Assembly: GCA_001774685.1 (NCBI GenBank) | Contig: MFAS01000001.1 | Location: forward strand, 91,489 to 155,488 | Source: Candidatus Collierbacteria bacterium RIFOXYD2_FULL_45_13 | GTDB lineage: Bacteria > Patescibacteriota > Microgenomatia > UBA1400 > MFAQ01 | Reading direction: 5' to 3' | DNA length: 64,000 bases | Part shown: one piece after another, positions 40,143 to 63,178 of the stretch | Layout: the number at the start of each line of letters is the position of its first letter | How positions within the stretch are numbered: position 1 is the stretch's first letter | The notes under the pieces: model-generated | Told to the model about the DNA's origin: nothing | Seen by the model: the letters and a program-made list of their open reading frames with translations, nothing else | Databases searched by the model: none | Translations under genes and position numbers: made by a program

Positions 40143-40157
40143 ACAAGGAGAATCCTC

Positions 40158-41087: not shown

Positions 41088-41110
41088 ATCGTAAACAAAA
41101 AGGAGATCTT

Positions 41111-41827
41111 ATGACTTCAAAAAGCGTCATTACTGTAGCCAACCTCAACAATACGAGCGCCCTCGCTCAAGTTCAGCACGCAGGTGCCAGCGACCTGAAC
41201 GGCGATCAAGTCACCTTGATTCTGCGCATCCTCGATCGCACTGGATCCCTTCTCCGCTACAAGTCGGAAATGATCCAAGCCGCTCAGCTCAATGTTGATG
41301 CCCTGCGCGAATCCAAAGCTGGCGACGAGATGCTCATGTCCACCTGGACCTTCAACGCTACAGACGGCTTCACTGTAGTCGATGGCTTCGTCAAGCTCGA
41401 AGACGTTACCCCGCTTGACGACCAAAACTACGACATGCAGCCTGAAGACATGACCAACCTGTATGACACTGTCTTCACCGCTCTTACCGACCCTCTTGCC
41501 GGCATCATCGCCTACGCGGACAGCCTGCGGAAAAGTGGTATCCGCGTCAAAGTCACTGTCTTGGTCCTCACCGACGGCGAAGACAACCGCAGTCGGATTG
41601 ATCCCAGCAAAATCAAGGCTCTAACGAGCGCCAATGAAGGTTGTTACTTCTGTCTCATGGCCTTCGGCACCGGCTTTGCTCAGGAAGCGGCCCGCGACAT
41701 GGGCTTCCCCAACGTCCGCGAATACAACGCCACCAAAGGCGAACTTCGCAAGATGATGGGTGAGTTCTCCAAGTCCCAGGTTCGCGCCTCACAAAGCACC
41801 GTCGCTCCCAACGCTTTCTTTAATTAG
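41111..41827 (+). CDS. von Willebrand factor A (vWA) domain protein with a MIDAS-like motif
   Basis: LILRILDRTGSL (DxTxS MIDAS variant), VLVLTDGEDN. SD AAAGGAG. Confidence 0.65.
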   Translation: MTSKSVITVANLNNTSALAQVQHAGASDLNGDQVTLILRILDRTGSLLRYKSEMIQAAQLNVDALRESKAGDEMLMSTWTFNATDGFTVVDGFVKLEDVTPLDDQNYDMQPEDMTNLYDTVFTALTDPLAGIIAYADSLRKSGIRVKVTVLVLTDGEDNRSRIDPSKIKALTSANEGCYFCLMAFGTGFAQEAARDMGFPNVREYNATKGELRKMMGEFSKSQVRASQSTVAPNAFFN

Positions 41828-41839
41828 TCGGTTTTCTTC

Positions 41840-41866
41840 GCCCTCCCCATCCGGGAGGGCTTTTTT
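41840..41866 (+). terminator. Strong rho-independent terminator
   Basis: GCCCTCCC-catcc-GGGAGGGC + TTTTTT immediately after the vWA stop. Confidence 0.8.
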
Positions 41867-41910
41867 ATCACCCAATTTGACAGAACCAATATCCATAATT
41901 AAGATTAGTT

Positions 41911-42483
41911 ATGAATAAACTCGGTTATCTTCTTAAACTAGCCGCCAGTGCATCTCTTTTCCTAATCATCGTCAGTCCCTCATTTGCCGCCAAGCCAGAC
42001 AACGCTGGAAACGGCTACACTAAATCTGGCAAACCAGTCGCCGTTGTTTCCACAGTTCGAGCCAAAGCCTGTCAAGCCAAGGAATCGGCCGTCAAAACAC
42101 GGATGACGCAGATGACGAAACTCGTCACCACCATGGAAACTACCTTCGACAAAATCGCCGAAAGAGTCCGGGGGTACTATACCGACAAAGTGCTTCCTTC
42201 CGGCAAGTCTCTCCCTAACTACAGTGCCCTGACAAGCAACATTACCTCCAATAAAGCTCTGGTCCAAACAGCCCTTGACAAAGCTCAAGCTGACACCTTA
42301 GCTTTCAGCTGTGACTCCGAAAATCCTAGAACTCTATTGCTCCAGTTCAATACCAACATGAAACTGGTCAAAGGTGCTCTCAAAACATACAGGACGGCCA
42401 TTAATAAGCTTATTGTCGCGATCAGGACCATCCCCGCCATTTCTCCAACCCCTTCTCCCACCAATAATGTCACCATTGATTAA
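41911..42483 (+). CDS. Secreted hypothetical protein (signal peptide)
   Basis: MNKLGYLLKLAASASLFLIIVSPSFAA signal peptide. Confidence 0.55.
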   Translation: MNKLGYLLKLAASASLFLIIVSPSFAAKPDNAGNGYTKSGKPVAVVSTVRAKACQAKESAVKTRMTQMTKLVTTMETTFDKIAERVRGYYTDKVLPSGKSLPNYSALTSNITSNKALVQTALDKAQADTLAFSCDSENPRTLLLQFNTNMKLVKGALKTYRTAINKLIVAIRTIPAISPTPSPTNNVTID

Positions 42484-43863: not shown

Positions 43864-43903
43864 ATGCCTAAAAAATTTTGCTCGTGGGACGATTTCGAAC
43901 TAT
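43864..43903 (+). repeat. Direct repeat copy 1 (AAATGCCTA...GCTCGTGGGACGATTTCGAACTATT)
   Basis: Matches copy 2 at 44391..44446, with 1 indel in the 21-bp core TGGGACGATT(T)TCGAACTATT. Overlaps the nucleotidyltransferase stop codon. Confidence 0.8.
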
Positions 43904-44376
43904 TTTAGATCTCTAAGTTTCTGAACAATATTCAAATCACTATTACCTCGTTTTTCGATCCTGTACCCATCAGTAGAACTGAAAGTATATGCTTTTATAA
44001 AACATTCAGGCTTAAGGGTATTAACATCGATTCCGTCAACAATAATTTTGACAACATCACTTTTTGGATCGCAAATATTATCTTCGATCAAAACACTCTT
44101 TTCTGCAAAAGCCACTTTAATCCCTTCTGGATTTACAAATTCATGTTCTTTTTCATCGGAGATCTCAAAACCATTACTTGACATCAATTCTTTCAAAAAA
44201 GACCATTTTTCTCCTGTAAACTCATCATCAACCAACAAATCAATATCGTCAAAATCTCTAAACTTCCCTAAGTAGACAGATACTCCCAATGAACCGTATA
44301 GAATAGAGTCGACATTGTTTACTCTGAGGAAACCATCAACTTTCTTGTAATCACCAAGTTTTACAGACATAGGCAA
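43900..44376 (-). CDS. Minimal nucleotidyltransferase-fold protein (Pol-beta-like NTase; ANT/MNT-like)
   Basis: YGSLGVSVYLGKFRDFDDIDLLV (G[SG]...D.D NTase motif). Confidence 0.6.
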   Translation of the reverse strand: MPMSVKLGDYKKVDGFLRVNNVDSILYGSLGVSVYLGKFRDFDDIDLLVDDEFTGEKWSFLKELMSSNGFEISDEKEHEFVNPEGIKVAFAEKSVLIEDNICDPKSDVVKIIVDGIDVNTLKPECFIKAYTFSSTDGYRIEKRGNSDLNIVQKLRDLK

Positions 44377-44390
44377 ATTTTACCAGAGTT

Positions 44391-44446
44391 CGAAAAAATG
44401 CCTATTTCAAATCAAAGCTCGCCAGATGGGACGATTTTCGAACTAT
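44391..44446 (+). repeat. Direct repeat copy 2 (AAAAAATGCCTATTT...GCTCGCCAGATGGGACGATTTTCGAACTATT)
   Basis: See copy 1. Lies 15-70 nt upstream of the nucleotidyltransferase start. Confidence 0.8.
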
Positions 44447-44477
44447 TATCTCTCAGGCGATCTAGTTACAAACAATC

Positions 44478-44759
44478 TCAACGCTTTTTCTCAGACTTCT
44501 TACTCTTTAAATAGAGCCACAATGGAGCAATAACTAGCCCGAACAAACTAAGTAAGGATAACAACCCATTATCTTCTAACGCAAAGAAATACTGTATGAC
44601 CTTTAGAAAGAAGAATGCTACTTGTATCAACACAAAACCAAACACGACAAATTTGGCAGACAAACCCCAGCTTATCTTTCCTTCCGCATAATACTGATAT
44701 AAAACCACGGGCAAAGTGGCTCCAACAATCAATAGTATTAACCAAATCATGTTATTCAT
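44478..44759 (-). CDS. Small three-TM membrane protein, hypothetical
   Basis: Hydrophobic helices. Colinear run of minus-strand genes. Confidence 0.45.
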   Translation of the reverse strand: MNNMIWLILLIVGATLPVVLYQYYAEGKISWGLSAKFVVFGFVLIQVAFFFLKVIQYFFALEDNGLLSLLSLFGLVIAPLWLYLKSKKSEKKR

Positions 44760-44774
44760 AGACTTATTTAATTA

Positions 44775-45254
44775 TTAGTTGTCTACCACTAATGTCCCTG
44801 ACCACTTATCATGCCACCCTATTGGACGATGTTTTCCATCTTCACCCTTGCTTGAAAAAAATGAGAATGGTTCAAATGGTATGAATCTAACCAAAGAACG
44901 AATAAATATTTTTCTAAATTCAGGAGAGTTCCCTTCAGCATCTACAGCTCTCGTATTTGTTAAGAGCTTACCTGGGGTTTTACCAGTCAAAGATTCAAAT
45001 AGTAGATAGTATAAGAAGAAAGCTAGATATCCCAACACCTGCTCTGAGCCGTCAACGAAATCTGCTAAGCCAAGTATTGCTAGTACAAAACCAATACAAA
45101 AGGCAAAAACCATTGCTCCCCCCATATCGATTAAATAATTAAGTAAGCGTTTGTTACTTGTTGCCGGCACAAACTCTTTTGGAGTCTCAAATCCGCAATA
45201 ACGACAATAAGAGGCATTGTTAGAAATTGATCTCCCACAGCTTTTGCAGTTCAT
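44775..45254 (-). CDS. Zinc-ribbon + RDD-family membrane protein
   Basis: N-terminal CKSCG...CRYCG ribbon. RDD-like GKTPGKLLTNTRAVD loop. Confidence 0.55.
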   Translation of the reverse strand: MNCKSCGRSISNNASYCRYCGFETPKEFVPATSNKRLLNYLIDMGGAMVFAFCIGFVLAILGLADFVDGSEQVLGYLAFFLYYLLFESLTGKTPGKLLTNTRAVDAEGNSPEFRKIFIRSLVRFIPFEPFSFFSSKGEDGKHRPIGWHDKWSGTLVVDN

Positions 45255-45281
45255 GTTTTATTTATTATTAATTTATTTAAC

Positions 45282-46016
45282 TTACCTAGTAAGCTCGAAT
45301 GAACTTATAAAATTATCAAAAGATTTCTCAAAGTTTGCATATTCACTTGAGACAATCAAAACCAAGTAAAACTTAACCTTGGGTAGATCATCTCTGACAA
45401 ATCCCATTCCCTTGACATAATAATCTTTCTCAAAAAAACCATTAAACTCTATAGCATCATAACCCTTAAATGAAGTGAGAATAGAATCGTTTATGCTATA
45501 ACCTGACTCTCCTACCATTCCATTGATTGAACCTTCTAAACCTGTCTTGTTGTCAAAATTTTCTGGAGCAATATCATAGTCCCAAGACTGAACCATATAA
45601 ACATTCTGATCATCTGGAGTCGAATAATAATATTGAGTACCACTATAAGTTACTCCATTAATAGAATCTGTTGGAATTCGTTGTGTGGTTGGATATTCTG
45701 GGAAACTGATTTTAAATCCGTGTTCTGCAGAGACAAATTTATCTGACTGATTTGACAAGTTTTGAGTTGTGGGTGTGTCTGCTCCCTCTTCTGGAACATT
45801 TCCTAATACATATAGACCGAATATGATTAAGAAAAGAACTAGTAATCCTAATAAAATATTTTTTAACAATGAAGGTTTTTTGTTTGGTACATACACCACA
45901 TCGCTTATCGAACGACCAATTCGACCTTTACTGGTCTTAGACTGTAATTTTTGACCACATTTTTCACAATATCTACTTCCGAAAGGGTTATTGCGACCAC
46001 AATATTTACACTTCAT
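45282..46016 (-). CDS. Zinc-ribbon single-TM protein with an extracytoplasmic domain, hypothetical
   Basis: CKYCG...CEKCG ribbon, TM LLGLLVLFLIIFGLYVL. Confidence 0.5.
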   Translation of the reverse strand: MKCKYCGRNNPFGSRYCEKCGQKLQSKTSKGRIGRSISDVVYVPNKKPSLLKNILLGLLVLFLIIFGLYVLGNVPEEGADTPTTQNLSNQSDKFVSAEHGFKISFPEYPTTQRIPTDSINGVTYSGTQYYYSTPDDQNVYMVQSWDYDIAPENFDNKTGLEGSINGMVGESGYSINDSILTSFKGYDAIEFNGFFEKDYYVKGMGFVRDDLPKVKFYLVLIVSSEYANFEKSFDNFISSFELTR

Positions 46017-46022
46017 AACTTT

Positions 46023-46799
46023 TTATTTATTAATAAAATTCTTGTTCCAAAAATAGGTCATCGCCTTGATTCTATTAGTAGTCAATGGATGATTTGATAA
46101 GAGCTCTCCCAGCTTCAATCCAAATCCTCCAGCTACATTAAGTTGCTGGATATACCCATCAACATTTAGTTTTTTGTATAGCTCAGCTCCAATTGAAAGT
46201 TTTATCAACGATGAAACAGCAGAATCGATATTTCTCGTAAGCACTAGTCCGCATCTGTCAGAAGTATATTCCGTTTGTCTTTCATAAAACCCCATTACAA
46301 GATTTGAAAAAGGATTATTCATTCCTAGAGGACTCGTTAAGGAAGTTATTTTTGTGTGTCCGGCTTTAAAATGACCTAACTCATGAGCAACGACAAATCT
46401 CAGTTCTTTTGTTGACAACTGTTCTACCAGAGCAGATGTCAGAACAACAGTACAAGTGGAAATACCTAATGTCCACGCATTAAGACTTGGATCCTGTTTG
46501 ATATAAATATTTGCTTTCCTAACGCCCAGCATTTTTGAATACTCAAGCAGAATCTCGAATATCTCAGGAAATTGATTACTATGCACTCTTACAGAATCTC
46601 CAAGATAGTAGAATTGTTGTAATTGAATAAACACTATTCCAATCACTATCATAAAAAGAACAAAGTATACACTTATCAGCGATAATGCCCAGCCCAAGAG
46701 AATTAACAGTGAGAAACTAATAAATAAAGAGATAAATTCCCCACTATTTCGAAACATCCAACTTTCAACATTCTTATCTACATTTTCATATTGATTCAC
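46023..46799 (-). CDS. M48-family zinc metalloprotease (HtpX-like)
   Basis: HExxH in VVAHELGHFKAGH. Two N-terminal TMs. Confidence 0.75.
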   Translation of the reverse strand: MNQYENVDKNVESWMFRNSGEFISLFISFSLLILLGWALSLISVYFVLFMIVIGIVFIQLQQFYYLGDSVRVHSNQFPEIFEILLEYSKMLGVRKANIYIKQDPSLNAWTLGISTCTVVLTSALVEQLSTKELRFVVAHELGHFKAGHTKITSLTSPLGMNNPFSNLVMGFYERQTEYTSDRCGLVLTRNIDSAVSSLIKLSIGAELYKKLNVDGYIQQLNVAGGFGLKLGELLSNHPLTTNRIKAMTYFWNKNFINK

Positions 46800-46938
46800 C
46801 TTAGCTCAATTATAAACCAAATAAATTACCAACAATCCATCAATGAATTTACTGATATAAAGGTCTCGAACTAGTCGTCTGACAAGTGATGTCATCGAGG
46901 AAGGCCCCTGTCAACACGATTAGACTATACTAAATTAC

Positions 46939-47220
46939 ATGAAGGGTATTATCAGCTTTGCTGTACTCATATTTGTTATATTTTGGATTTGGAATCACGT
47001 TATTTCACCCCCTAAATTCACTGGATTCTACTATCCGAATGCCGGTGAACTAAGTGTCTACAAACAAAGTCCCGAATTAGATTCCTTAGAAGAATGTCGA
47101 GAATGGGTTGAGGATATTAGTGGAGGACGAACAGATCAAAATTTTGATTATGAATGTGGAAAAAACTGTAGGCTGAGTGAGGCTGGTGGTATTTATATTT
47201 GTAATGAAACCTTAGAATAA
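46939..47220 (+). CDS. Small secreted Cys-containing protein, hypothetical
   Basis: N-terminal TM/signal peptide, 4 Cys. Confidence 0.4.
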   Translation: MKGIISFAVLIFVIFWIWNHVISPPKFTGFYYPNAGELSVYKQSPELDSLEECREWVEDISGGRTDQNFDYECGKNCRLSEAGGIYICNETLE

Positions 47221-47362
47221 TTCCTAAACTTCTTAACTCAACCCACATTGCTCACAAAAGGACGATCTTCGAAGTCAAAGCCAAAAGATTGGCGAGTAAA
47301 TTGCCAAAAACAGTTTAAAATACACAAAATACTATTTTGTGGTTAAATACTACTCATAAACT

Positions 47363-47596
47363 ATGATTTCAGTTACTTTCGGCGGTAAAGCAAAAAGATT
47401 AATGTATGAGGCGTTGAATAAGTCGGTTGATGGAGAGGGTTATCTCGTAGAAACTCTTAATCCGAAGCAAAGAGTCTTAACTAAAGATGGTGAGTTTATA
47501 AAACCAAATGAGGTTGGAATTGTTAGACCTGGCTCTCAAATATTTATTAAAAAAGATATTGTCTCATTAATTAAATTCGCTTCGGACTTAATTTAA
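47363..47596 (+). CDS. Hypothetical protein (77 aa)
   Basis: Stop codon abuts the start of the next gene (47597). Confidence 0.4.
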   Translation: MISVTFGGKAKRLMYEALNKSVDGEGYLVETLNPKQRVLTKDGEFIKPNEVGIVRPGSQIFIKKDIVSLIKFASDLI

Positions 47597-48481
47597 ATGG
47601 GTTTTTTAAAAGAACTTGGAGAGTTTTTGATAAAGATTTCAGAGGGCAAGCTTCAGTTCAAGGCAGATGTTCACTTCTTAGAAAATGTTAAAGATATTAA
47701 AGTAGGTGAATCCAACACGACTTATGTTGACAACAGAACTCTAATTATTGGTGACGATGCGTTGTCTAACCCTGAAGCGGTAAAAAAACTTACGCAAATA
47801 TTCCAATCTGCGATAGATCCAAAAAATAAACAAGCGTATTTTTCGGTAAATAATGGGCAGGAAAGGTTGTTGGAAGTGAAAGAGGCCGATATTTGTTCTT
47901 CAAACATAGACTTCTTTAGGGGTAAAATCTCCGACACAGATTTTATTATTCTACAAACGGCATCTGTAGTTAAAAACATGTATATCAAGGGAAACCAGCC
48001 CGAAGCAAATAGAATAAAACATGAGACTGTAGAAAGGTATGGCAAAAGAGCAAACAATATCATTAACTTATACGCTGAAAGTTACTTCGATACCACACTA
48101 AAGCCACTATATGAGATACTTTACGAAACGGGAGATGCTGACTCTGTAGATATCTTCGACAAAATGTATAGAATAATTGTTTCTGAGGAAGTTTTTACTT
48201 TATTTGTCTCAACGACACAGACAGAAGAACAGGTTTACGATAAGCTTAAGGAAAAAATAGAGGTCAACAGGTCTTACGGTGCTTACAAGATAAATATTCA
48301 TGGAATAAACAAGTCAAATGTTGACAAGATTAATAATGTTGTGGTTAAACTTATTGAAGAAAAAGTGGTTGATGGAATGCCAAATATCATTCAAAAAGGA
48401 CATGCCATCATGGCGCAAATTAAACTTAGTAAAAGAGAAGGAGATGTTGATCCATCAGATGATGTAGTTTCTATAATTTGA
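47597..48481 (+). CDS. Hypothetical protein (294 aa)
   Basis: Long ORF. No recognisable motifs. Confidence 0.5.
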   Translation: MGFLKELGEFLIKISEGKLQFKADVHFLENVKDIKVGESNTTYVDNRTLIIGDDALSNPEAVKKLTQIFQSAIDPKNKQAYFSVNNGQERLLEVKEADICSSNIDFFRGKISDTDFIILQTASVVKNMYIKGNQPEANRIKHETVERYGKRANNIINLYAESYFDTTLKPLYEILYETGDADSVDIFDKMYRIIVSEEVFTLFVSTTQTEEQVYDKLKEKIEVNRSYGAYKINIHGINKSNVDKINNVVVKLIEEKVVDGMPNIIQKGHAIMAQIKLSKREGDVDPSDDVVSII

Positions 48482-48538
48482 TTAGAATTTAGACACAAGC
48501 TGTGACATTTGCCATACCAGACTATTCCTTACATACAT

Positions 48539-49189
48539 TTAATTACAAAACCATGATCTCTCACATCTGGTAGTGCAGGTGCCAGTAAAGCTATTGCAGT
48601 TCTCCTTACAGCACATTGGTGCCTCCATGGGCTTAACTGTTGGGATTTGAATTGGCTGTTGGATTCGAACATTTGTAACGGGAGCTGGTTTGTTGCTTTG
48701 TGCGTACTCCTGCTGTTTCAGCTTGCACTCATCTTTATCCAAAGTTATGTTTACATTACCCACCCCGCAACATGTCGAATTAACACAAGCGCTTTGTTTC
48801 ATTCTCTTCGTACCCCCACCACATTTTTCATGCAAAGGGCAATCTATCAGAGGGTCTGATTGATCTATCTTGGTATTGGTTTTGCTAAGGTCAGCACTTG
48901 GGATTGAGTACAAGACAAAAAAGAACAAAACAAAGACACCGCCAGACACTCCTAGCATTTTCCAGTCTTTATTTCTAAGGACAGAGACAAAAAACAGTAA
49001 AAATCCAATTACCCCAACGAGTATGCCTAATAAGAGTAGGAGCATGTTGAAACCACTTCCGTTTAAAAAGTTTCCACTTACCGAAAGAATTGAGATATAA
49101 AAGATAGCAATTCCTGACAACCAAAGATAAAAATATTGTCTACTGTGGTTGACAGCGTGACTATTCCTTGTCGACTTACCTTTTTTCAT
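48539..49189 (-). CDS. Membrane protein with a Cys-rich C-terminal domain, hypothetical
   Basis: Two or more TMs, more than 12 Cys in the C-terminal 90 aa. Confidence 0.45.
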   Translation of the reverse strand: MKKGKSTRNSHAVNHSRQYFYLWLSGIAIFYISILSVSGNFLNGSGFNMLLLLLGILVGVIGFLLFFVSVLRNKDWKMLGVSGGVFVLFFFVLYSIPSADLSKTNTKIDQSDPLIDCPLHEKCGGGTKRMKQSACVNSTCCGVGNVNITLDKDECKLKQQEYAQSNKPAPVTNVRIQQPIQIPTVKPMEAPMCCKENCNSFTGTCTTRCERSWFCN

Positions 49190-49196
49190 CTTACAT

Positions 49197-49400
49197 TCAG
49201 TTTACACCTGTCATTTTAATGAGATCAGTCATTTTATACCTTCTATCACCTCTTATACCAAACCTGATGGCCTTCAAAATCCCTTTCTTATCCCAAAGCC
49301 TCAAGGTATTTGGGTGAACTCTCAATATTTTGCATGCCTCAGATAGGGTCACAATTTCATTTAATTTCTTTTTCATAGCCATAATTTTTACCAAGTACAA
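49197..49400 (-). CDS. Excisionase/MerR-like helix-turn-helix DNA-binding protein (HTH_17-like)
   Basis: IVTLSEACKILRVHPNTLRLWDKKGILKAIRFGIRGDRRY. Confidence 0.6.
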   Translation of the reverse strand: MYLVKIMAMKKKLNEIVTLSEACKILRVHPNTLRLWDKKGILKAIRFGIRGDRRYKMTDLIKMTGVN

Positions 49401-50107
49401 TACTTTCCAGTCAACTCGTTAAACCTGCCTCTTTGAGACGAGATGGTCTGCATTCGATAATAATCGATTGGGTCTGAAGTTTTAATTCCATACTGTAAAA
49501 GCCTTTCGGATCTGTTTTGATCATTATCTCTTCTCCAATCTTGACATTCTTTTATCTCAGCATCTGCTCCTCTACGATGACATTTCGAATCCATCTCTAG
49601 AAATGCAACTTCCTCTTCATATTTCTTAAGATCTGAATACACCTTTGTTAACTGTTCACCTGTACATATGGCGGGAACAATTTCCCCCTTTATTTCTCGT
49701 GGAACAGCTATTTGCTGGGTTGGACTAGTAATAGAAAACTTTGGAACAGGAAATTTTTGGAACTTAGAAAGAAAATACTTATCATATTCACGAATCATAT
49801 CTGGCGAGTTCATAATTCTATCAATACTCGCCTTTTCAGTTAATCCAAAAAAATTTCTCAGGACATCTTCAGTAATTGAAGTCGTTGGGTGAAGAATTTT
49901 TGTCGGTGTCACTGATGGTTTTCTGGTTGGATAGTTTGTCGGTTTATTTACAACTGGTGAATCAGGCGCAACCAATGTTACGGTTGGCATTACAATCTCT
50001 GTCGATTCCGTAGCTACTGGTGTGTATTTCTCTATTTGTTTGGGTTGATGACTAAATAAGCTTGAAATAGACACAAACATTGCAACAAAAAAGTTTCTCA
50101 TAACCAT
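49388..50107 (-). CDS. Secreted hypothetical protein
   Basis: Signal peptide MVMRNFFVAMFVSISSLFS. 13-nt overlap with the HTH gene. Confidence 0.5.
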   Translation of the reverse strand: MVMRNFFVAMFVSISSLFSHQPKQIEKYTPVATESTEIVMPTVTLVAPDSPVVNKPTNYPTRKPSVTPTKILHPTTSITEDVLRNFFGLTEKASIDRIMNSPDMIREYDKYFLSKFQKFPVPKFSITSPTQQIAVPREIKGEIVPAICTGEQLTKVYSDLKKYEEEVAFLEMDSKCHRRGADAEIKECQDWRRDNDQNRSERLLQYGIKTSDPIDYYRMQTISSQRGRFNELTGKYCTW

Positions 50108-50152
50108 ATCTTACTTGATATTACCTCACAATAAAATACAATATACCTCATC

Positions 50153-50956
50153 ATGAATATAAAGATTATTGAACCAACTTTTATGGCAAGAGAGATCAGA
50201 AAAGTTACTTCATACGAAAAGATTTTTTTAAACATACTTGAAGATGATGCTTACTTTGAGACTAAAGTATTATCTGCAAGAAAAATGCTTGGTATACCTG
50301 AAAACGGATTTGATATTCAGATAAATGTTCTATCCAAAGATTTCCTTAGTGATGTCCTAATGTCTGAAAGAGGGAAGCCACTTATGGAACTGTTAAAACA
50401 CACTGGTCTAAGTCGGCAAAAACACGAGAGACTACTTAGAAAACTGACCCAAGAAATTTGCAACGAGTATCAAATGCACCTTGGTCGATGGGAATTCCCA
50501 ATATCGCTACTAATCATATACAACAAGTTAATTATGTATACAGGAACAAATTTACCTAAAGTTAATCTTGTAAGTGGTTCTGAGGTGTCAGGAAAAACTC
50601 CTTATAGATATCAAATACCTGACAGTTTTGTCTATTTGGAAATAGAAGATATTCTCACAAAAACAGAGTTAATAAGAAGCGTAAAAAAACTTTGGCCCAA
50701 AATAAACAAAATGTTAAAAAAATACAGAAGTCCAATCACATCTGTTCCAAGAATAAAGATTCAAGATCCTACGCTTGAAATCTATAGATTTATATTCCAA
50801 CAAAGACAAAATGAAGACGCTACTTTTACTCAAATTGCTGACAAAATATCCGACAAGTACAACAAACAGTTTTCCGATAACCAAGCCAACATTTATTTCA
50901 CAAGATATCTTGAAACCATAAATAGCCTCAGAAAATCTACCACATCTCAGACATAA
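50153..50956 (+). CDS. Hypothetical protein (267 aa)
   Basis: Long ORF in an AT-rich block. Confidence 0.5.
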   Translation: MNIKIIEPTFMAREIRKVTSYEKIFLNILEDDAYFETKVLSARKMLGIPENGFDIQINVLSKDFLSDVLMSERGKPLMELLKHTGLSRQKHERLLRKLTQEICNEYQMHLGRWEFPISLLIIYNKLIMYTGTNLPKVNLVSGSEVSGKTPYRYQIPDSFVYLEIEDILTKTELIRSVKKLWPKINKMLKKYRSPITSVPRIKIQDPTLEIYRFIFQQRQNEDATFTQIADKISDKYNKQFSDNQANIYFTRYLETINSLRKSTTSQT

Positions 50957-51411
50957 CAACTGTTATGTTTATCTTTTGATGTATTAAGTTCATCCATAAA
51001 AAGTTAGATTTGCTTGTTATTAAAACAGGCAAATATGAATATAAACAATTTCTTTGTTTCAGCAGATCTTCCCTTAGTCACCACCATCTCCCTTTATTAC
51101 CCAATAGACGCCCTCGACAGATCTAGCCCTCCAAGAGTTCAATTTCTTTTTAAGAGGGATGGCGATCTCGATAAGCTGGTTGAGGCTTTCTGGAAAGACG
51201 AACTCAGAGTCAGTCCTCAAATCTTTTTCAACCAACTGAAAATTATTAAGTCTAGGATTCACAACAACTAGTATGTTGAGTCCAGCGTTGATCTCCGAAC
51301 TCCAACAGATTCTTATCTCCGACTTTGGAATCAATGCTGATTTAAAAGAAACTACCAATATCGGCAATTCTCTGGCTAAGTATTTCGAAATATTAATAAA
51401 CATAAACAAAA

Positions 51412-51612
51412 ATGAAAAACCTCAAGTCCCAACCAAAAAACGCAATTATTAAACTCCACAGAGTGCTGGAACAGGCTATCAAAGCCAAGTGCTACGACTG
51501 CCAGTGTGGGCAAAAGAAACTAGACTGCGAAATCATAGCCTGTCCACTTTACTTACTAAGACCATGGGCAAACAAGAAGTATAGGAAAAATAAACAAATT
51601 TCCCAAGGCTAA
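51412..51612 (+). CDS. Small Cys-rich (zinc-binding-like) protein, hypothetical
   Basis: CYDCQCG...C..IACP. Confidence 0.4.
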   Translation: MKNLKSQPKNAIIKLHRVLEQAIKAKCYDCQCGQKKLDCEIIACPLYLLRPWANKKYRKNKQISQG

Positions 51613-51643
51613 ATAATAAATAATTTGATTCCTAGTAATAAAT

Positions 51644-51997
51644 ATGAATATAGACATACAAGACATCAAAGTAAAAATCAAAATCCTCAAAGGAGCCGGG
51701 AAAACACTTGCTCAAGCCTCCATAACACTGTTTGACTGCTGGACGGAACATGGATGGCGAATAATGACCTCTGAACACCTCGATCCCATCCTTCAAGAAT
51801 ATATATGGATTCAATCCCCTTGTTTTAAAGCTGGCTTCTCTTGGAAAGAAATGGTCTTTATCGAACCCAAAGAACAATATGAAAAAGTTTACGAAAAAAT
51901 CTACGACGCATATAGAATCGCCAAATACAAGGAACCACAGGAAGATGAAGCAGAAAAAATATTCACCGACTCAAAAACGAATGAACCACCTTTCTAG
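51644..51997 (+). CDS. Hypothetical protein (117 aa)
   Basis: ORF with an acidic C-terminus. Confidence 0.45.
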   Translation: MNIDIQDIKVKIKILKGAGKTLAQASITLFDCWTEHGWRIMTSEHLDPILQEYIWIQSPCFKAGFSWKEMVFIEPKEQYEKVYEKIYDAYRIAKYKEPQEDEAEKIFTDSKTNEPPF

Positions 51998-52002
51998 ACA
52001 CA

Positions 52003-52085
52003 TAGTAACTAATAGAGTTACTTATATAGTTACTCTATATAGTAACTATATTGTTTCTCTAAATAGAGTATCTATAAAAGTTACT
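52003..52085. promoter_or_regulatory. Iteron-like cluster: 5 copies of AGTAAC/GTTACT in alternating orientation (candidate operator, origin or recombination site)
   Basis: catAGTAACtaatagaGTTACTtatataGTTACTctatatAGTAACtat ... aaaaGTTACTgt seen directly. Lies 45-125 nt upstream of the 52130 gene. Confidence 0.55.
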
Positions 52086-52129
52086 GTACCCGAAAGTATT
52101 AGAATCTCTAATTATTTCGGATAAACAAA

Positions 52130-52744
52130 ATGGGTAGATATTCGTATTCAAGCAAGTCAGAAGCCGACTCACTAAAAAGCGTCAGTGTCTATTGGCTAAA
52201 TAAATATAAATATCTAGAACCTGGCTATACAAAATCGGGTGGAATTGTATGGACTAGGTCAAATGGATCGAAAAACGACATCAGAATTTGTGTTTCCATC
52301 CCCGATCTTTATGTTCAATTCAAATATATTCAAACAGATCGTGAAACCGGAGAGAAAAAAGACTTTGACTACAAGATTCCACTCATCACGTCAGTATGCC
52401 ACTTTGGTGGAATAAGATATTGGTTCAAATGCAGTATGTATAAAAGCGGAAAGTTCTGTGGTCGGAGAGTAGCTACTGTTTACAAAGATGGAGACTACTT
52501 TGCTTGTAGGCATTGTTACGATCTCACATATTCGAGCAAAAAAGAAAATTATAAGGGTTTCTTTGGAATGTTGACAAAATTAATCTATGAAGAAAAAAGA
52601 ATGGAAGCAATTAGAGACTCTCTCAAGAGAAAGACCTACGCTGGCAGACCAACCAAAAAAGTTCGAAGGTTCCTCCGACTCGCTAGTCATCATCCGGAAA
52701 AGGTTCATGAGCTAATCGACCAAAATATATATCGAGCTCGTTGA
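52130..52744 (+). CDS. Zinc-finger protein, hypothetical (Cys4: CHFGG..C / C..CRHC)
   Basis: Basic C-terminus. Preceded by the iteron cluster and followed by the serine recombinase. Confidence 0.5.
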   Translation: MGRYSYSSKSEADSLKSVSVYWLNKYKYLEPGYTKSGGIVWTRSNGSKNDIRICVSIPDLYVQFKYIQTDRETGEKKDFDYKIPLITSVCHFGGIRYWFKCSMYKSGKFCGRRVATVYKDGDYFACRHCYDLTYSSKKENYKGFFGMLTKLIYEEKRMEAIRDSLKRKTYAGRPTKKVRRFLRLASHHPEKVHELIDQNIYRAR

Positions 52745-52793
52745 TTTAACAATACTTGATAATAGATACCAAATAAACTAAACTAAAATAAAT

Positions 52794-54017
52794 ATGAAAA
52801 GTGTTGTTCTGTGTAGAGTTTCCAGCAAAGAGCAAGAAGAAACCGGATATTCTTTGGGGGCACAGGAAAAGTTCCTGAACTCTTATAGAGAGAAACAAGG
52901 ATACCAACTCACAAAGCTCTTCTCTATCTCCGAATCAGCCAGTGGTAAAAAACAAAGAGAGCTTTTTGATCAAATGATTTCATTCGTCAAGAAGAACGAA
53001 ATAAAGGTCATAATCTGCGAGAAAGTCGATCGTCTCACCAGGAATTTTAAAGACATGGTCATGATCGATGAGTGGTTGGAAGAAGATGAAAGCAGGCAAG
53101 TCCACCTAGTCAAAGACTCTCTAATAATTCATAAAAACTCTCGATCTCAAGAAAAACTCAATTGGGGTATTCGAATCCTGTTCGCCAAAAATTATGTCGA
53201 CAACCTATCGGAAGAAGTCAAAAAAGGGCAAAAAGAAAAGATTTCTCAAGGCTGGCTACCAACAAAACCACCGTATGGATATAAAACCATTGGAGAGAGC
53301 GGACACAAAGAACACATCATTGATGACCGAATTGCTCCGCACATAAAAAGAATGTTTGACCTGTACTCTACCGGGATCTATTCCATCAAACGAATAGTCG
53401 AGGTTATATATCAAGAGGGACTAAGATCACATAAAGGAAATAAACTCACAAAGAGTCGAGTTGGTGAACTCCTATCCGATCCGTTTTATATCGGGAAAAA
53501 TGTATGGAATGGTTCTGAATATATCGGAAAACAAGAACATCTGATTTCAGAAGAAACATTTGCGAAGGTACAACAAGTTTTAAAAGGAAAAACAAACCCA
53601 AAATACAGCAAGCACGATTTCCTTTTCAAGGGTCTGATTAAATGTCAGGAGTGTCATGGTACTATCACATGGGAAACTCAAAAAGGAATCATCTATGGCC
53701 ACTGTAATCACTATCGAAACTGTTCTCAAAAAACCTGGTCAAAAGAAAAGGATACAGAAGAAACGGTTCTTAAGGGTCTGGAAAGTTTGAAACTGTATAG
53801 TCCTAAGCTCACAGAATGGATAAGAAAAGCGTTAAAAGAAAGTCACCAGTCAGAGATTGAATACCACGAATCAACGCAAACAGAACTAAAACAAAAATAC
53901 GACCAAGTACAGAATAGATTAGACCGACTCTTCGATGAAAAGATTGATGGAAATATCGAGGATGCGTTCTATAAAAGAAGTTCACTCAGTATTCCGAGGA
54001 AAAAGAAGCCATCCTAA
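52794..54017 (+). CDS. Large serine recombinase / integrase (resolvase catalytic domain + recombinase domain + zinc ribbon)
   Basis: Catalytic-Ser region VLCRVSSKEQEETGYSLGAQ, VDRLTRN, ribbon CQECHG..C..C, coiled-coil tail. Confidence 0.85.
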   Translation: MKSVVLCRVSSKEQEETGYSLGAQEKFLNSYREKQGYQLTKLFSISESASGKKQRELFDQMISFVKKNEIKVIICEKVDRLTRNFKDMVMIDEWLEEDESRQVHLVKDSLIIHKNSRSQEKLNWGIRILFAKNYVDNLSEEVKKGQKEKISQGWLPTKPPYGYKTIGESGHKEHIIDDRIAPHIKRMFDLYSTGIYSIKRIVEVIYQEGLRSHKGNKLTKSRVGELLSDPFYIGKNVWNGSEYIGKQEHLISEETFAKVQQVLKGKTNPKYSKHDFLFKGLIKCQECHGTITWETQKGIIYGHCNHYRNCSQKTWSKEKDTEETVLKGLESLKLYSPKLTEWIRKALKESHQSEIEYHESTQTELKQKYDQVQNRLDRLFDEKIDGNIEDAFYKRSSLSIPRKKKPS

Positions 54018-54352
54018 GTAGCATTAGACGACATTCAGAGTCCTCCACGAACTATCTTCAGAAATGTCTAGCTGTCTATGATATTTCACAAAATGCCACC
54101 GGGTCATACTCAAACGGAACTGTAGAACAAAAACACGAGTTAATAAATCTAGTCTTTAAGTCCCTGACTCTAAATAATGGGGTGCTTGGATACTCCTACA
54201 ATGATCATTTTGACCTGCTACACAAAGCTGTTCAAGCCACCAATAGTTCGAAAGTCGAAAAAACAGTCTCAGAAGACTCTATTATTTTCGAACTAGGTAA
54301 AAAGACGGATAAATCGAACATTAAAGGCCGGATATTACCCACCCGACCTGTT

Positions 54353-54650
54353 TGGCTCCCCCGCGTGGACTCGAACCACGGACATCCTCCTTACAAGTGC
54401 CCTCAACTTTCGAAGAGGCTTGGACTATCTCATCACCGCTGAGCGGTGTCAGGCGTATAGTCTCTGAACCTTCCGATCAACAAACACAGGGGTTTACCCT
54501 GAGCCTGCCGAAGGGCTTGGCTGCGGATTACCATGGCCTTTCGGTCAACAGGCTTCCCGACAGTTAACCCGATTTTCCACCCAAAATTGCTTTCAGGCGC
54601 TGCAAGTTATGTATTACAGGGAGGCGCTCTACCAACTGAGCTACAGGGGA
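54353..54650 (-). tRNA. tRNA-Asn(GUU) interrupted by a group I intron. Exon 1 is 54616..54650, exon 2 is 54353..54393 with CCA encoded
   Basis: Spliced sequence UCCCCUGUAGCUCAGUUGGUAGAGCGCCUCCCUGU|UAAGGAGGAUGUCCGUGGUUCGAGUCCACGCGGGGGAGCCA. Nearly identical in architecture to E. coli tRNA-Asn (anticodon loop CUGUUAA, variable loop AUGUC, T-loop UUCGAGU, discriminator G). 5' exon ends in U and the intron ends in G. Confidence 0.7.
54394..54615 (-). other. Group I intron (222 nt) inserted between anticodon positions 35 and 36
   Basis: Core elements on the RNA strand: Q AAUCCGCAGC (54520-54529), R GUUCAGAGACUA (54458-54469), S GAGAUAGUCC (54422-54431). A candidate internal guide GCAG pairs with the exon end CUGU. 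The ORF-track ORFs 54182..54442 and 54352..54567 overlap it and are spurious. Confidence 0.65.
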
Positions 54651-54680: not shown

Positions 54681-54992
54681 TCACGCCTTTCCCGCAAGGC
54701 TAATATAGCCAGAATGGACCTCTCTGTGGCAATTTGCACACAACAAAACACATTTTAGGACTTCTTCTTTTGTTTTCTCCCACGATCTAGTCAAGCCTCT
54801 ATCTGACAAACCAAACTCTTTGGTCGACCCCTCTATGTGATGGAAATCGAGCGCTTTTATCGCTCTACAATACCCACAAACCACACATTTTCCACCCAAT
54901 AAGTCCACAGCCATTTGTCTTAATTTCTTTCTACGTTTTTTGACAGATCTAATATTACTTTCCCTTACATCAGCATATTTTCTGGTCTCCAT
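54681..54992 (-). CDS. Free-standing HNH endonuclease
   Basis: CVVCGY...DFHHIEG...CANCH (HNH beta-beta-alpha-metal motif). 31 nt upstream of the intron-containing tRNA. Confidence 0.75.
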   Translation of the reverse strand: METRKYADVRESNIRSVKKRRKKLRQMAVDLLGGKCVVCGYCRAIKALDFHHIEGSTKEFGLSDRGLTRSWEKTKEEVLKCVLLCANCHREVHSGYISLAGKA

Positions 54993-62043: not shown

Positions 62044-62130
62044 TGGCGGAGGCGGTGGGATTCGAACCCACGGGGCCTTGTTAGGCCGCGGGTTAGCAAC
62101 CCGCTCGAATAACCACTATCGGACGCCTCC
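62044..62130 (-). tRNA. tRNA-Ser(GCU), class II (long variable arm), CCA encoded
   Basis: GGAGGCG-UC-CGA-UAGUGGUUAU-UCG-A-GCGGG-UUGCUAA-CCCGC-(16-nt variable arm)-GUGGG-UUCGAAU-CCCAC-CGCCUCC-G-CCA. Confidence 0.85.
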
Positions 62131-62275
62131 AAGTGAGCAACGGGAAAAACATCGTTTTCCTTAGTTGCGAGCGCGGAGATGCCGGATAACTACCGTTATC
62201 GGACGCCTCCAGCAAACCCTATTTTAACAGCTATTCCCGGTTTCCTAGCCTCACGAATGATAAAATAGACTTCTC

Positions 62276-62357: not shown

Positions 62358-62362
62358 CTCTT

Positions 62363-62447: not shown

Positions 62448-62465
62448 CCTGTGTTAATATGAAAT

Positions 62466-63085: not shown

Positions 63086-63091
63086 CTTATG

Positions 63092-63176: not shown

Positions 63177-63178
63177 AC

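What the first reader, a model, noticed from the sequence alone, without database searches (positions are those of the whole stretch)
43864..44446. Nucleotidyltransferase gene cassette bracketed by approximately 45-bp imperfect direct repeats
The minimal NTase-fold gene (GS...D.D motif) is flanked by two copies of AAATGCCTA...GCTCG...TGGGACGATT(T)TCGAACTATT. One overlaps its stop codon and one lies 15-70 nt upstream of its start. Each copy could encode a tiny MP-initiated peptide, but the conservation is at DNA level. The arrangement resembles a small mobile cassette, such as target-site or attachment-site duplication or an integron-like unit. It could also be duplicated promoter/terminator modules. 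Minimal NTases of this kind are typical of toxin-antitoxin (MNT/HEPN) or antibiotic nucleotidylation functions, but no HEPN partner is evident.
Basis: seen in the sequence. Interest (0 to 1): 0.5.

Follow-up and report, generated by a model that had tools for sequence, protein, structure and literature searches.

The report
Integration-site scars flanking a nucleotidyltransferase gene
The two repeats around this small nucleotidyltransferase gene are junction scars left by mobile elements that use a serine recombinase to insert next to the tRNA-Asn gene of a Collierbacteria (CPR) genome, so the gene is most likely left-over cargo of an old insertion, not a free-standing mobile cassette or a toxin-antitoxin pair.

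Summary
The repeat is real. Local alignment of copy A against copy B scores 44, against at most 27 for any other window stretch or shuffle.

It is not a promoter duplication, an integron site or a target-site duplication. Both copies are attL-type hybrid attachment sites: host tRNA trailer (B'), a 4-bp core GCTC, then the element arm (P'). They belong to a Patescibacteria-wide family of 5-11 kb elements. These elements use a large serine recombinase (LSR) to integrate at the 3' end of tRNA-Asn(GUU).

- **Copy B (44398-44465)** is the attL of a 9.94-kb low-GC element at 44.42-54.36 kb. Its attR abuts an intron-containing tRNA-Asn at 54353.
- **Empty site:** relatives lacking this element have tRNA-Asn joined directly to the same NTase promoter.
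- **Copy A (43864-43917)** is an older attL that has lost 6 nt. Intact orthologues follow the NTase stop codon in relatives.
- **Repeat core (TGGGACGATTTTCGAAC)** mimics the tRNA T-arm shifted 5 bp outward, the known attP/attB offset. It also encodes W-D-D-F-R-T, the start of the recombinase tail that integration splits off.

The NTase has an ANT(2'')/LnuA/TM1012-like fold. It is most likely the last cargo gene of an earlier element. The recombinase here is frameshifted, so the locus is probably frozen.

The parts
43864..43917 (+). Copy A: a decayed attL-type junction (attL1). It comprises the B'1 trailer remnant 43864-43879, the core GCTC 43880-43883 and the P'1 arm 43884-43917. Relative to intact sites it has lost 5 nt + 1 nt.
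   Evidence: The attL profile gives a weak hit (12.1 bits). Orthologues with full P' spacing follow the NTase stop codon in L005, L100 and L101.
43900..44370 (-). Nucleotidyltransferase gene, 156 aa, with a Pol-beta-type fold. Its stop codon lies inside the P'1 arm.
   Evidence: ORF. GS...DxD motif invariant. AlphaFold2 pLDDT 91. Foldseek matches to TM1012, ANT(2'')-Ia and LnuA. Pfam and NCBIfam hits are all below threshold.
44377..44404 (-). Promoter-like site for the NTase (TAGGCA, 16 nt, TG-TAAAAT). It lies in the B'2 trailer, and its -35-like box is the 'ATGCCTA' block of copy B.
   Evidence: The same sequence sits directly after tRNA-Asn in L005.
44398..44465 (+). Copy B: attL2 of the 9.94-kb element. 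It comprises the B'2 trailer 44398-44416, the core GCTC 44417-44420 and the P'2 arm with the displaced recombinase tail ORF 44418-44465 (LARWDDFRTIISQAI*).
   Evidence: attL profile hit of 34.4 bits, E 1.4e-8. The left arm matches L005 attB up to GCTC apart from five substitutions and then diverges. The tail peptide is conserved in more than 25 loci.
44419..54356 (.). Integrated element of about 9.94 kb with 36.0% GC, against 44-45% in the flanks. The left half is unique cargo (RDD protein, zinc-ribbon proteins, M48 peptidase). The right half is the conserved module (HTH_17, 85-aa, 117-aa and 204-aa proteins, and the LSR).
   Evidence: GC profile. The element is absent between tRNA-Asn and the NTase in L005-L008.
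49197..49376 (-). A 59-aa HTH_17/MerR-like (excisionase-like) protein. It is a candidate directionality factor or regulator of the element.
   Evidence: Pfam annotation. It is conserved in 19 related elements. Its role is inferred.
52794..54352 (+). Large serine recombinase gene, interrupted by a 1-nt deletion at about 53976-53980. The annotated ORF stops at 54017 (407 aa). Relatives are about 533-560 aa and read on into the tRNA antisense strand.
   Evidence: Resolvase, Recombinase and Zn_ribbon_recom domains. Frame comparison with L015-L031.
54330..54377 (+). attR2: the P arm (end of the recombinase coding region), the core GCTC 54355-54358 and the B arm (tRNA-Asn acceptor/T-arm, antisense).
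54353..54650 (-). tRNA-Asn(GUU), the integration target. It is interrupted by a 222-nt group I intron (54394-54615) in the anticodon loop.
   Evidence: Rfam RF00028 at 72.8 bits. Exons mapped by comparison with the intron-less tRNA-Asn of L005.

Best explanation
The two repeats are attL-type hybrid attachment sites. Each consists of a host tRNA trailer B', a 4-bp crossover core GCTC, and an element arm P'. They belong to a family of small integrative elements that use a large serine recombinase (LSR) to insert at the very 3' end of tRNA-Asn(GUU) in Patescibacteria.

Copy B is the attL of the 9.94-kb element now lying between tRNA-Asn and the NTase. Copy A is the decayed attL of an earlier element of the same family. 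The NTase, whose stop codon lies inside that old P' arm, is that element's surviving P'-proximal cargo gene.

The 20-nt repeat core is conserved for two reasons at once:
- It is the recombinase-binding P' half-site. It copies the tRNA T-arm motif TCGAAC but places it 5 bp further from the crossover, as expected for attP versus attB half-sites.
- It encodes W-D-D-F-R-T, the beginning of the recombinase's C-terminal tail. attP lies inside the recombinase gene, so integration moves this tail to the far end of the element.

**Shown:** the identity of copy B as a junction, the empty site in relatives, the family-wide att architecture, and the tail conservation.

**Inferred:** that copy A derives from a separate earlier integration; that the cassette was left behind by excision at an inner attL or by internal deletion; and that the locus is now immobile because the recombinase is frameshifted and copy A has lost 6 nt.
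For: 1. **Empty site.** In L005-L008 (NTase 90% identical), tRNA-Asn is followed directly by the same trailer and promoter that lie right of the NTase in the window. The two sequences match up to the GCTC core apart from five substitutions and diverge beyond it.
2. **Element boundaries.** The intervening 9.94 kb has 36% GC against 44-45% in the flanks. It carries an LSR (Resolvase + Recombinase + Zn_ribbon_recom) at the tRNA end.
3. **Target specificity.** All 80 recombinase homologues fetched are in MAG contigs, mostly labelled Patescibacteria. At least 38 have an antisense tRNA-Asn 340-450 bp after residue ~395 (294 bp in L028). A few have Gln, Asp or Leu instead.
4. **Paired sites.** In about 19 loci both attR (P-GCTC-tRNA) and attL (B'-GCTC-G..TGGGACGATTTTCGAAC) were found, 5.4-10.8 kb apart. 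An attL profile built from 15 sites, copy B among them, scores copy B at 34.4 bits and copy A at 12.1 bits. It also gives 25-27-bit hits beside the NTase in L005, L100 and L101.
5. **Half-site geometry.** TCGAAC starts 12 nt after the central TC in the tRNA half-site and 17 nt after it in P'. This matches the 5-bp shift of the zinc-ribbon-domain motif between attB and attP described by Rutherford et al. 2013 (PMC3783163).
6. **Tail peptide.** Reading from the core, more than 25 attL sites encode a conserved tail, LA.(W)DDFRTIDW..EYP.P...L.EI..LL*. L022 and L026 carry it uninterrupted at the recombinase C-terminus.
7. **Copy A orthologues.** Orthologues with intact P' spacing follow the NTase stop in L005, L100 and L101, and a recognisable remnant does so in L096 (67% identity).
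8. **Foreign composition.** The NTase cassette has 33.9% GC, like the element and unlike the flanks.
9. **Recurrence.** The same 'one or two genes between attL scars' layout occurs with other cargo: a VOC-like gene in L079, an acidic 168-aa gene in L005, and a three-scar array in L101. In L100 a GNAT gene lies between tRNA-Asn and the attL scar upstream of the NTase.
Against: - No excision or integration product (restored attB or circular attP) was observed for this strain. The four loci fetched for the exact protein are 100% identical over 20 kb, and a fifth contig (L012, 99% NTase) also carries the element. The reconstructed attP gave no hit in viral contigs.
- Copy A scores only 12 bits against the attL profile. 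Its left arm shares an ATGCCTA 7-mer with copy B that the model does not explain. This could be chance, a -35-like box, or gene conversion.
- LSR rules forbid integration into attL or attR. How a usable attB (tRNA|B'2) came to exist upstream of a cassette that already carries an attL is therefore inferred, not shown.
- The trailer modules B'1 and B'2 occur in different orders in L100, L101, L005 and the window. The history is more tangled than simple serial insertion.
- In L009 the remnant upstream of the NTase looks like a true tRNA 3' fragment rather than a P' arm.
Confidence: 0.75

Rival explanations
1. The repeats are decayed duplicates of the tRNA-Asn 3' end, that is, classical att direct repeats made by tyrosine-integrase islands. 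On this view they are not P' arms of serine-recombinase elements.
For: - The core contains the T-loop-like TTCGAA followed by ..GCGAGC, which resembles the acceptor end.
- In L009 the sequence upstream of the NTase (GGTTCGAGTAAGGAGATGGAGGGGGGC|TTTGG) is tRNA-like.
- In L097 the NTase is flanked by TTCATCTAAGACGGGGA(G/T)C repeats.
Against: - No tyrosine integrase is present.
- The spacing from GCTC to TCGAAC in copy B and in more than 25 attL sites is 17 nt, not the 12 nt of the tRNA.
- The arm encodes the conserved recombinase tail peptide.
- It lies 5-11 kb from a linked LSR in about 19 loci.
- Only 4 bp (GCTC) are shared between the two ends of the element, as expected for serine rather than tyrosine recombination.
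Confidence: 0.08
2. The NTase cassette is still a cis-mobilisable unit. The neighbouring element can excise using the outer attL (copy A) instead of its own attL (copy B). This would carry the NTase with it and deposit it at tRNA-Asn in a new host.
For: - Two same-orientation attL-type sites bracket the gene next to an element with its own recombinase.
- The same layout occurs with well-preserved sites in L079 and L100.
- NTase plus P' travel together down to about 64-67% identity, in different contexts (L096, L097).
- The concept is established for tandem islands (accretion / cis-mobilisable elements), including serine-recombinase islands at ssrA in Dehalococcoides (PMC3146451).
Against: - In this genome the recombinase is frameshifted.
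- Copy A has lost 6 nt, which changes the half-site spacing to 11 nt.
- The cassette is in the same place in every close relative examined.
- No composite circle was seen.
Confidence: 0.1
3. The repeats are duplicated regulatory modules (promoter/terminator or operator) serving the NTase and the next gene, with no link to recombination.
For: - A sigma-70-like promoter (TAGGCA-16-TGnTAAAAT) lies in copy B's left arm.
- A weak hairpin followed by a T-run overlaps the core.
- A TGGTAGAAT box follows copy A.
Against: - Promoter-like matches in the region are no more frequent than in shuffles (2 against 2.4).
- The conserved 20-nt core is outside the promoter.
- The core is tied to recombinase genes and tRNA-Asn in dozens of unrelated genomes.
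- Copy A has no significant fold (z = 0.3).
Confidence: 0.04
4. The unit is an integron-like gene cassette or an MNT/HEPN-type toxin-antitoxin module.
For: It is a small promoter-proximal gene flanked by imperfect repeats. The NTase has the GS..DxD signature.
Against: - The Pfam scans of the neighbouring ORFs (41-57 kb) found no IntI-type integrase and no HEPN gene.
- The repeats are direct half-sites rather than attC-like palindromes.
- The predicted fold is closest to the two-domain NTases TM1012, ANT(2'')-Ia and LnuA, not to minimal MNT antitoxins.
Confidence: 0.02

Closest known systems
Dehalococcoides ssrA genomic islands (McMurdie et al. 2011, PMC3146451)
   Same: - Tandem islands pile up downstream of a single small-RNA gene, with insertion in the T-loop/acceptor region.
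- Each island has a conserved integration module with a ~540-aa large serine recombinase next to the RNA gene, and variable cargo at the far end.
- Some islands lack the module and are interpreted as cis-mobilisable or fixed remnants.
   Different: - The target here is tRNA-Asn, not tmRNA.
- The hosts are Patescibacteria.
- Elements are 5-11 kb and remnants are one to two genes.
- Only 4 bp are shared between the ends, rather than a 20-bp direct repeat.
- No second small serine recombinase (DsiA/CcrA-like) was seen.
- attP lies inside the recombinase ORF.
Large serine integrase att-site architecture (Listeria A118/LI integrase; Rutherford et al. 2013, PMC3783163)
   Same: - Short hybrid attL and attR sites.
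- A small non-palindromic crossover core.
- The outer (zinc-ribbon-domain) motif of the attP half-site is displaced 5 bp outward relative to the attB half-site (one search compared).
   Different: - No biochemical data exist for this family.
- Only the right half-sites (P' and tRNA) show the shared motif clearly.
- attB is a tRNA gene, whereas the characterised serine integrases I know of target protein-coding or intergenic sites (own knowledge).
Accretion and cis-mobilisable elements (CIMEs) of streptococcal ICEs (reviewed in PMC5704250)
   Same: A gene block without its own recombinase sits in tandem with an autonomous element and is bounded by sites related to that element's att sites.
   Different: - CIMEs are bounded by attL and attR of a tyrosine integrase with identical cores.
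- Here both bounding sites are attL-type sites of a serine recombinase.
- Mobilisation is unproven.
Integron gene cassettes
   Same: Arrays of single, promoter-poor genes, often small-molecule-modifying enzymes (NTase, GNAT, VOC-like), separated by recombination-site repeats beside a fixed platform.
   Different: - There is no IntI tyrosine recombinase.
- There is no attC hairpin or attI.
- The platform is a tRNA gene.
- The sites are half attP / half attB junctions.
ANT(2'')-Ia, LnuA and TM1012-type nucleotidyltransferases
   Same: A predicted two-domain Pol-beta fold with GS...DxD. Foldseek E-values are 1e-5 to 1e-3 and TM-scores 0.53-0.66.
   Different: - Sequence identity is 13-20%.
- All Pfam and NCBIfam hits are below the curated cut-offs.
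- The substrate is unknown.
- The family found is small (34 sequences); every source-named member is Patescibacteria.
Integrase genes split by their own attP (SSV1-type archaeal viruses) and integration-dependent immunity of mycobacteriophages (own knowledge, not checked here)
   Same: attP lies within a gene of the element, so integration changes that gene's product.
   Different: - Those systems use tyrosine integrases.
- Here only about 30 C-terminal residues of a serine recombinase are exchanged, for residues read from the tRNA antisense strand.

Membership tests
attL/attR junctions of a large-serine-recombinase integrative element | A linked recombinase with Resolvase, Recombinase and zinc-ribbon domains at one end of the inserted DNA | tested here: met
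   ORF 52794-54017 has PF00239, PF07508 and PF13408. It lies about 340 bp from the tRNA-side junction.
attL/attR junctions of a large-serine-recombinase integrative element | Relatives with an uninterrupted target (attB) whose two halves match the outer arms of the two junctions | tested here: met
   L005-L008 have tRNA-Asn|GCTC|trailer-NTase. The left arm of copy B matches up to GCTC apart from five substitutions, and the right arm of attR is the tRNA.
attL/attR junctions of a large-serine-recombinase integrative element | Only a very short shared core at the two ends, with no long direct repeat | tested here: met
   GCTC is the only sequence common to attL and attR in the window and in about 19 other elements.
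attL/attR junctions of a large-serine-recombinase integrative element | attP-type and attB-type half-sites share a motif offset by 5 bp | tested here: met
   TCGAAC lies at +13 in the tRNA arm and at +18 in the P' arm across loci. The rule comes from PMC3783163. It is clear for the right half-sites only.
attL/attR junctions of a large-serine-recombinase integrative element | Recombination between the sites by the cognate enzyme | not testable with these tools
   No circular or empty-site product was found for this strain. The recombinase is frameshifted here.
Cis-mobilisable element (accretion) | No recombinase of its own, bounded by att sites usable by an adjacent autonomous element | tested here: inconclusive
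   The cassette has no recombinase and is bounded by two attL-type sites next to an element. Usability is doubtful for two reasons: copy A has lost 6 nt, and both sites are of the same type.
Integron cassette | An IntI tyrosine recombinase with attI, and cassettes ending in attC palindromes | tested here: not met
   The Pfam scans of neighbouring ORFs across 41-57 kb found no tyrosine recombinase. Copy A does not fold (z = 0.3). Copy B's hairpin comes from the two TTCGAA-containing arms.
MNT/HEPN toxin-antitoxin | A minimal NTase paired with an adjacent HEPN-domain gene | tested here: not met
   The neighbours are a 93-aa membrane protein and an uncharacterised 132-aa ORF with no HEPN hit. The fold is closest to two-domain NTases.
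ANT(2'')/Lnu antibiotic nucleotidyltransferases | Significant match to the family profile (Pfam PF10706, or NCBIfam Lnu/ANT models) at or above the curated cut-off | tested here: not met
   PF10706 scores 17.6 bits against a cut-off of 21. Lnu(P) scores 14.6 against 300. There is structural resemblance only.
ANT(2'')/Lnu antibiotic nucleotidyltransferases | Nucleotidylation of an aminoglycoside or lincosamide | not testable with these tools
   This needs a biochemical assay.

The most novel reading that the evidence does not exclude
This Patescibacteria-wide serine-recombinase family keeps its attP inside its own reading frame. Integration at tRNA-Asn therefore exchanges a conserved ~30-residue C-terminal tail (..WDDFRTIDW..EYP.P..L..I..LL) for residues read from the tRNA antisense strand. 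This would give the enzyme a built-in sensor of its integration state, for example for directionality control. Alternate use of inner and outer attL sites would then deposit and pick up single-gene cassettes (NTase, GNAT, VOC-like). The result would be integron-like arrays of small-molecule-modifying enzymes next to tRNA-Asn in CPR genomes.
Probability: 0.25. Interest if true: 0.75.

Novelty: new variant of a known kind. Interest (0 to 1): 0.5.

Why it matters
- **For this finding.** What looked like a mobile resistance or TA cassette is a fossil of site-specific integration. The gene should be annotated as element-derived cargo of unknown substrate.
- **A recombinase family with inferable sites.** The locus exposes a widespread, apparently undescribed family of serine-recombinase elements in Patescibacteria. 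Their attB (the 3' end of tRNA-Asn), attP, crossover core and half-site geometry can all be read from sequence alone.
- **A possible tool.** CPR bacteria are very hard to manipulate genetically. A native serine integrase with a known, universally present attB is a concrete candidate for an integration tool.
- **A natural test of an existing model.** The T-arm mimicry with a 5-bp offset tests the attP/attB recognition model in nature.
- **An open question made approachable.** The tail exchange raises a testable question about how directionality is controlled.

Tried and rejected
- **The 56-bp palindrome at 54242-54297 as an att site.** I first took AATAGTTCGAAAG...ATTTTCGAACTAGG, next to the recombinase, for an att site. 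It is rejected. It lies inside the frameshifted C-terminal coding region and corresponds to the conserved peptides TN(S/G)SK and (I/K)FE(L/P) in relatives.
- **Both repeats as plain decayed tRNA-Asn 3' ends.** This is rejected for copy B and for the orthologues of copy A, on spacing and on tail-peptide conservation. It is kept as a minor rival because L009 and L097 show tRNA-like remnants.
- **Searches that gave nothing useful.**
  - The exact 20-mer with up to 3 mismatches finds only copy A because of the 1-nt indel.
  - The repeat finder reported only a 12-mer.
  - Rfam found nothing in the region.
  - PDB sequence search with the NTase profile returned 0 hits.
  - PHROGs on ten element proteins gave nothing informative, so there is no support for a prophage or inovirus.
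  - The recombinase had one fragmentary hit in viral contigs, and the reconstructed attP had none.
- **Looking for a variant strain without the element.** The four loci fetched for the exact NTase sequence are 100% identical over 20 kb, and the 99% variant L012 also carries the element.
- **Literature.** Searches found no description of this family.
- **Unresolved.** I could not determine the order of events that placed trailer modules B'1 and B'2 in different orders in L100, L101, L005 and the window.
Full report
**The observation.** The window comes from Candidatus Collierbacteria bacterium RIFOXYB2_FULL_46_14 (GCA_001774675.1, a 1.09-Mb contig). A 156-aa ORF on the minus strand (43900-44370) has the nucleotidyltransferase signature G26-S27...D42-x-D44, invariant in 31 homologues. 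Two similar stretches flank it on the plus strand.

- Copy A is 43864-43917. It overlaps the stop codon.
- Copy B is 44398-44465. It lies 28-95 nt upstream of the ATG.
- They share ATGCCTA, GCTCG, a 20/21-nt core TGGGACGATTT(T)CGAACTATT and ATCTCT.AG, with short indels between.

The gapped pattern occurs twice, against 0 in shuffles. The local alignment score is 44, against at most 27 in 2000 shuffles and in 6370 other windows of the same 64 kb.

**The surroundings.** GC falls from 44-45% to 36% between about 43.9 and 54.3 kb. At the right end of this block lies a large serine recombinase gene (52794-54017; Resolvase, Recombinase and Zn_ribbon_recom domains). About 340 bp beyond it, on the opposite strand, is a tRNA gene that ARAGORN missed because a group I intron interrupts it (Rfam RF00028, 72.8 bits). 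Comparison with an intron-less orthologue identifies it as tRNA-Asn(GUU):

- 3' exon 54353-54393
- intron 54394-54615
- 5' exon 54616-54650

**The empty site.** Relatives whose NTase is 90% identical (L005-L008) have the order dnaG-rpoD-tdk-holin-(ORF)-tRNA-Asn-NTase, without the 10-kb block. L009-L011 (80% identical) share the same neighbourhood, but have 570 bp with two small ORFs and a tRNA-like remnant between the tRNA and the NTase.

In L005 the tRNA 3' end runs ...GGCGGGGGAGC|TTTGGTCGGAAATTGGCATTTTTTCGAACTCTGGTAAAATTTGCCTATG(NTase). The window has the same trailer and promoter (five substitutions) up to the GAGC. Beyond that point it has the copy B arm instead of the tRNA.

So a 9.94-kb element (about 44419-54356) was inserted exactly at the tRNA 3' end. 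Copy B is its far junction. The near junction is at 54355-54358. Only GCTC is common to both ends.

**The element family.** A scan of one genome per species returned 80 loci with recombinase homologues at 46-83% identity, all in MAG contigs, mostly labelled Patescibacteria.

- In at least 38 loci, ARAGORN finds an antisense tRNA-Asn(GTT) 340-450 bp after residue ~395 (294 bp in L028). A few loci have tRNA-Gln, -Asp or -Leu instead. Others have intron-containing tRNA-Asn genes that ARAGORN misses.
- The recombinase ORFs of relatives are about 533-560 aa and read through the junction into the tRNA antisense strand (...RP[IV]WLPR.DSN...).
- The window gene has a 1-nt deletion in an A-run at about 53976-53980. 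This truncates it at 407 aa, within the predicted coiled-coil region. The remainder continues in another frame.
- On the same strand, 5-9 kb upstream of the recombinase, many loci carry (T/G)GCTCG-N5-7-TGG(G/A)ACGATTTTCGAAC.
- In about 19 loci both junctions were located, giving element sizes of 5.4-10.8 kb.
- An nhmmer profile of 15 such sites (copy B among them) scores copy B at 34.4 bits (E 1.4e-8) and copy A at 12.1 bits.
- The conserved module is HTH_17 (59 aa), 85-aa, 117-aa and 204-aa proteins plus the recombinase. The P'-proximal half is variable cargo.
- PHROGs gave no sign of a virus.

**Why the core is conserved.** There are two reasons.

*Half-site geometry.* In the tRNA half-site, TCGAAC (the T-loop) begins 12 nt after the central TC. 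In the P' half-site it begins 17 nt after. Rutherford et al. 2013 showed that, for a large serine integrase, the zinc-ribbon-domain motif of attB is shifted 5 bp toward the centre relative to attP (PMC3783163). The P' arm therefore looks like a T-arm mimic with the attP-type offset. The reconstructed window attP..CCCGACCTGTTTGGC-TC-GCCAGATGGGACGATTTTCGAAC.., has an inner inverted repeat TGGC/GCCA around TC.

*Coding.* Read in the recombinase frame from the core, more than 25 attL sites encode a conserved tail, LA.(W)DDFRTIDW..EYP.P...L.EI..LL*. In L022 and L026 this tail is continuous with the recombinase. attP thus lies inside the recombinase gene, and integration moves the last ~30 codons to the other end of the element. 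In the window the tail reads LARWDDFRTIISQAI*.

**Copy A and the NTase.** Copy A has the same B'-GCTC-P' layout but lacks 5 nt + 1 nt, giving an 11-nt spacing. Orthologous sites directly after the NTase stop codon keep the full spacing:

- L005: GCTCGCCGGCTGGGTCTGTTTTCGAAC
- L100: GCTCGCCAGCTGGGTCGATTTTCGAAC (25.7 bits)
- L101: GCTCGCGGATGGGACGATTTTCGAAC (25.4 bits)

A remnant survives in L096, at 67% NTase identity. The stop codon TAG is part of the arm. The cassette has 33.9% GC, like the element and unlike the flanks.

By the geometry of attL, the DNA on the NTase side of copy A was element DNA. The NTase is therefore best read as the P'-proximal cargo gene of an earlier element. The association predates the split of these Collierbacteria lineages. 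NTase homologues at 57% identity or less (L013, L095, L102-L116) lie in unrelated contexts without such scars.

**Recurrent arrays.**

- L079 has two well-preserved attL copies 592 bp apart. They bracket a VOC/glyoxalase-like gene upstream of an element.
- L005 has tRNA-Asn, the NTase, a weak attL, a 168-aa acidic gene and a strong attL.
- L101 has tRNA-Asn followed by three successive scars.
- L100 has an intron-containing tRNA-Asn, a P-arm remnant, a 289-aa ORF, a GNAT gene, attL, the NTase and attL.

Such arrays could arise in two ways. One is internal deletion of old elements; L100 keeps a P-arm remnant that fits this. The other is excision at an inner attL that leaves outer cassettes behind, with the converse picking them up. 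I could not decide between these. The trailer modules occur in different orders in different lineages, which remains unexplained.

**What the NTase is.** AlphaFold2 gives a confident model (pLDDT 91). Foldseek against the PDB finds an antigenic NTase-like protein (5uvd), TM1012, ANT(2'')-Ia and LnuA, with E-values from 1e-5 to 1e-3 and TM-scores of 0.53-0.66. All Pfam and NCBIfam matches are below the curated cut-offs, and no PDB sequence relative exists. It is a two-domain, probably small-molecule, nucleotidyltransferase of unknown substrate. It is not an MNT antitoxin, and no HEPN gene is nearby.

**Comparison with known systems.** The closest described analogue is the set of tandem ssrA genomic islands of Dehalococcoides (PMC3146451). 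Those islands have a large serine recombinase, insert in the T-loop region of a small RNA gene, combine a conserved integration module with variable cargo, and include remnants interpreted as cis-mobilisable or fixed. The differences here are:

- the target (tRNA-Asn)
- the host group
- the very small remnants
- the 4-bp shared core
- attP lying inside the recombinase ORF

Literature searches found no description of this family. I therefore rate it a new variant of a known kind.

**Verdict.** The repeats are genuine and meaningful, but they are att-site scars rather than the ends of an autonomous NTase cassette. In this genome the system is probably inert, because the recombinase is frameshifted and copy A is degraded. 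The four loci fetched for the exact protein are identical, and a fifth contig (L012, 99% NTase) also carries the element. The finding itself is of moderate interest. The recombinase family it exposes is the more valuable lead.

Noticed in passing
window 54353-54650 (-): tRNA-Asn(GUU) is interrupted in its anticodon loop by a 222-nt group I intron (Rfam RF00028, 72.8 bits), and ARAGORN missed it. The same intron-bearing tRNA-Asn occurs in L009, L016 and L100, while L005 and L101 have an intron-less gene. A 103-aa ORF with a weak HNH match (54681-54992, -) lies just upstream in the window, and a similar ORF does so in L009.
   Followed up: partly
window 52794-54352 (+), and loci L015-L094: attP of this recombinase family lies inside the recombinase ORF. 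Integration replaces a conserved ~30-aa C-terminal tail (..WDDFRTIDW..EYP.P..) with residues read from the tRNA antisense strand (..WLPRVDSNH..). The displaced tail ORF stays open and conserved at more than 25 attL sites.
   Followed up: partly
window ~53976-53980: A 1-nt deletion in an A-run frameshifts the serine recombinase (FYKR|KFTQYSEEK). The same sequence is present in all four loci fetched.
   Followed up: partly
window 54242-54297: A 56-bp imperfect palindrome (AATAGTTCGAAAG...ATTTTCGAACTAGG) sits inside the recombinase C-terminal coding region. Both arms contain T-loop-like GTTCGAA and correspond to the conserved peptides TN(S/G)SK and (I/K)FE(L/P). In L028 the sequence jumps from the first arm straight into the tRNA, 94 bp shorter. 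It is unclear whether these are extra binding sites or just conserved codons.
   Followed up: partly
L079 49-691; L100 7697-8895; L101 1-1912; L005 10001-11228: Arrays of attL-type scars lie downstream of tRNA-Asn, separated by one or two genes. The cargo includes a VOC/glyoxalase-like gene, a GNAT acetyltransferase and the NTase. These are all enzyme families that modify small molecules.
   Followed up: partly
window 43864-43870 and 44398-44404: The ATGCCTA 7-mer shared by the left (host-trailer) arms of both copies is not explained by the att model. In copy B it is the -35-like box of the NTase promoter. In L100 the copy A-type trailer lies upstream of the NTase instead of downstream.
   Followed up: partly
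window 62044-63600: A cluster of six tRNA genes (four Ser, two Arg). It includes a tRNA-Ser that ARAGORN calls with the unusual anticodon ACT (62363-62449).
   Followed up: no
window 40000-42000: A local GC maximum of 50-56%, against about 44% elsewhere, lies just left of the hotspot. The genes downstream of the NTase differ between the window, L005 and L009, so this flank is also variable.
   Followed up: no
L022 3570-4029; L026 11179-11653; L068 11547-11573: Some family members keep the uninterrupted recombinase tail (an attP-like state) with no tRNA downstream, even on long contigs. These could be unintegrated elements, other targets or domesticated copies.
   Followed up: no
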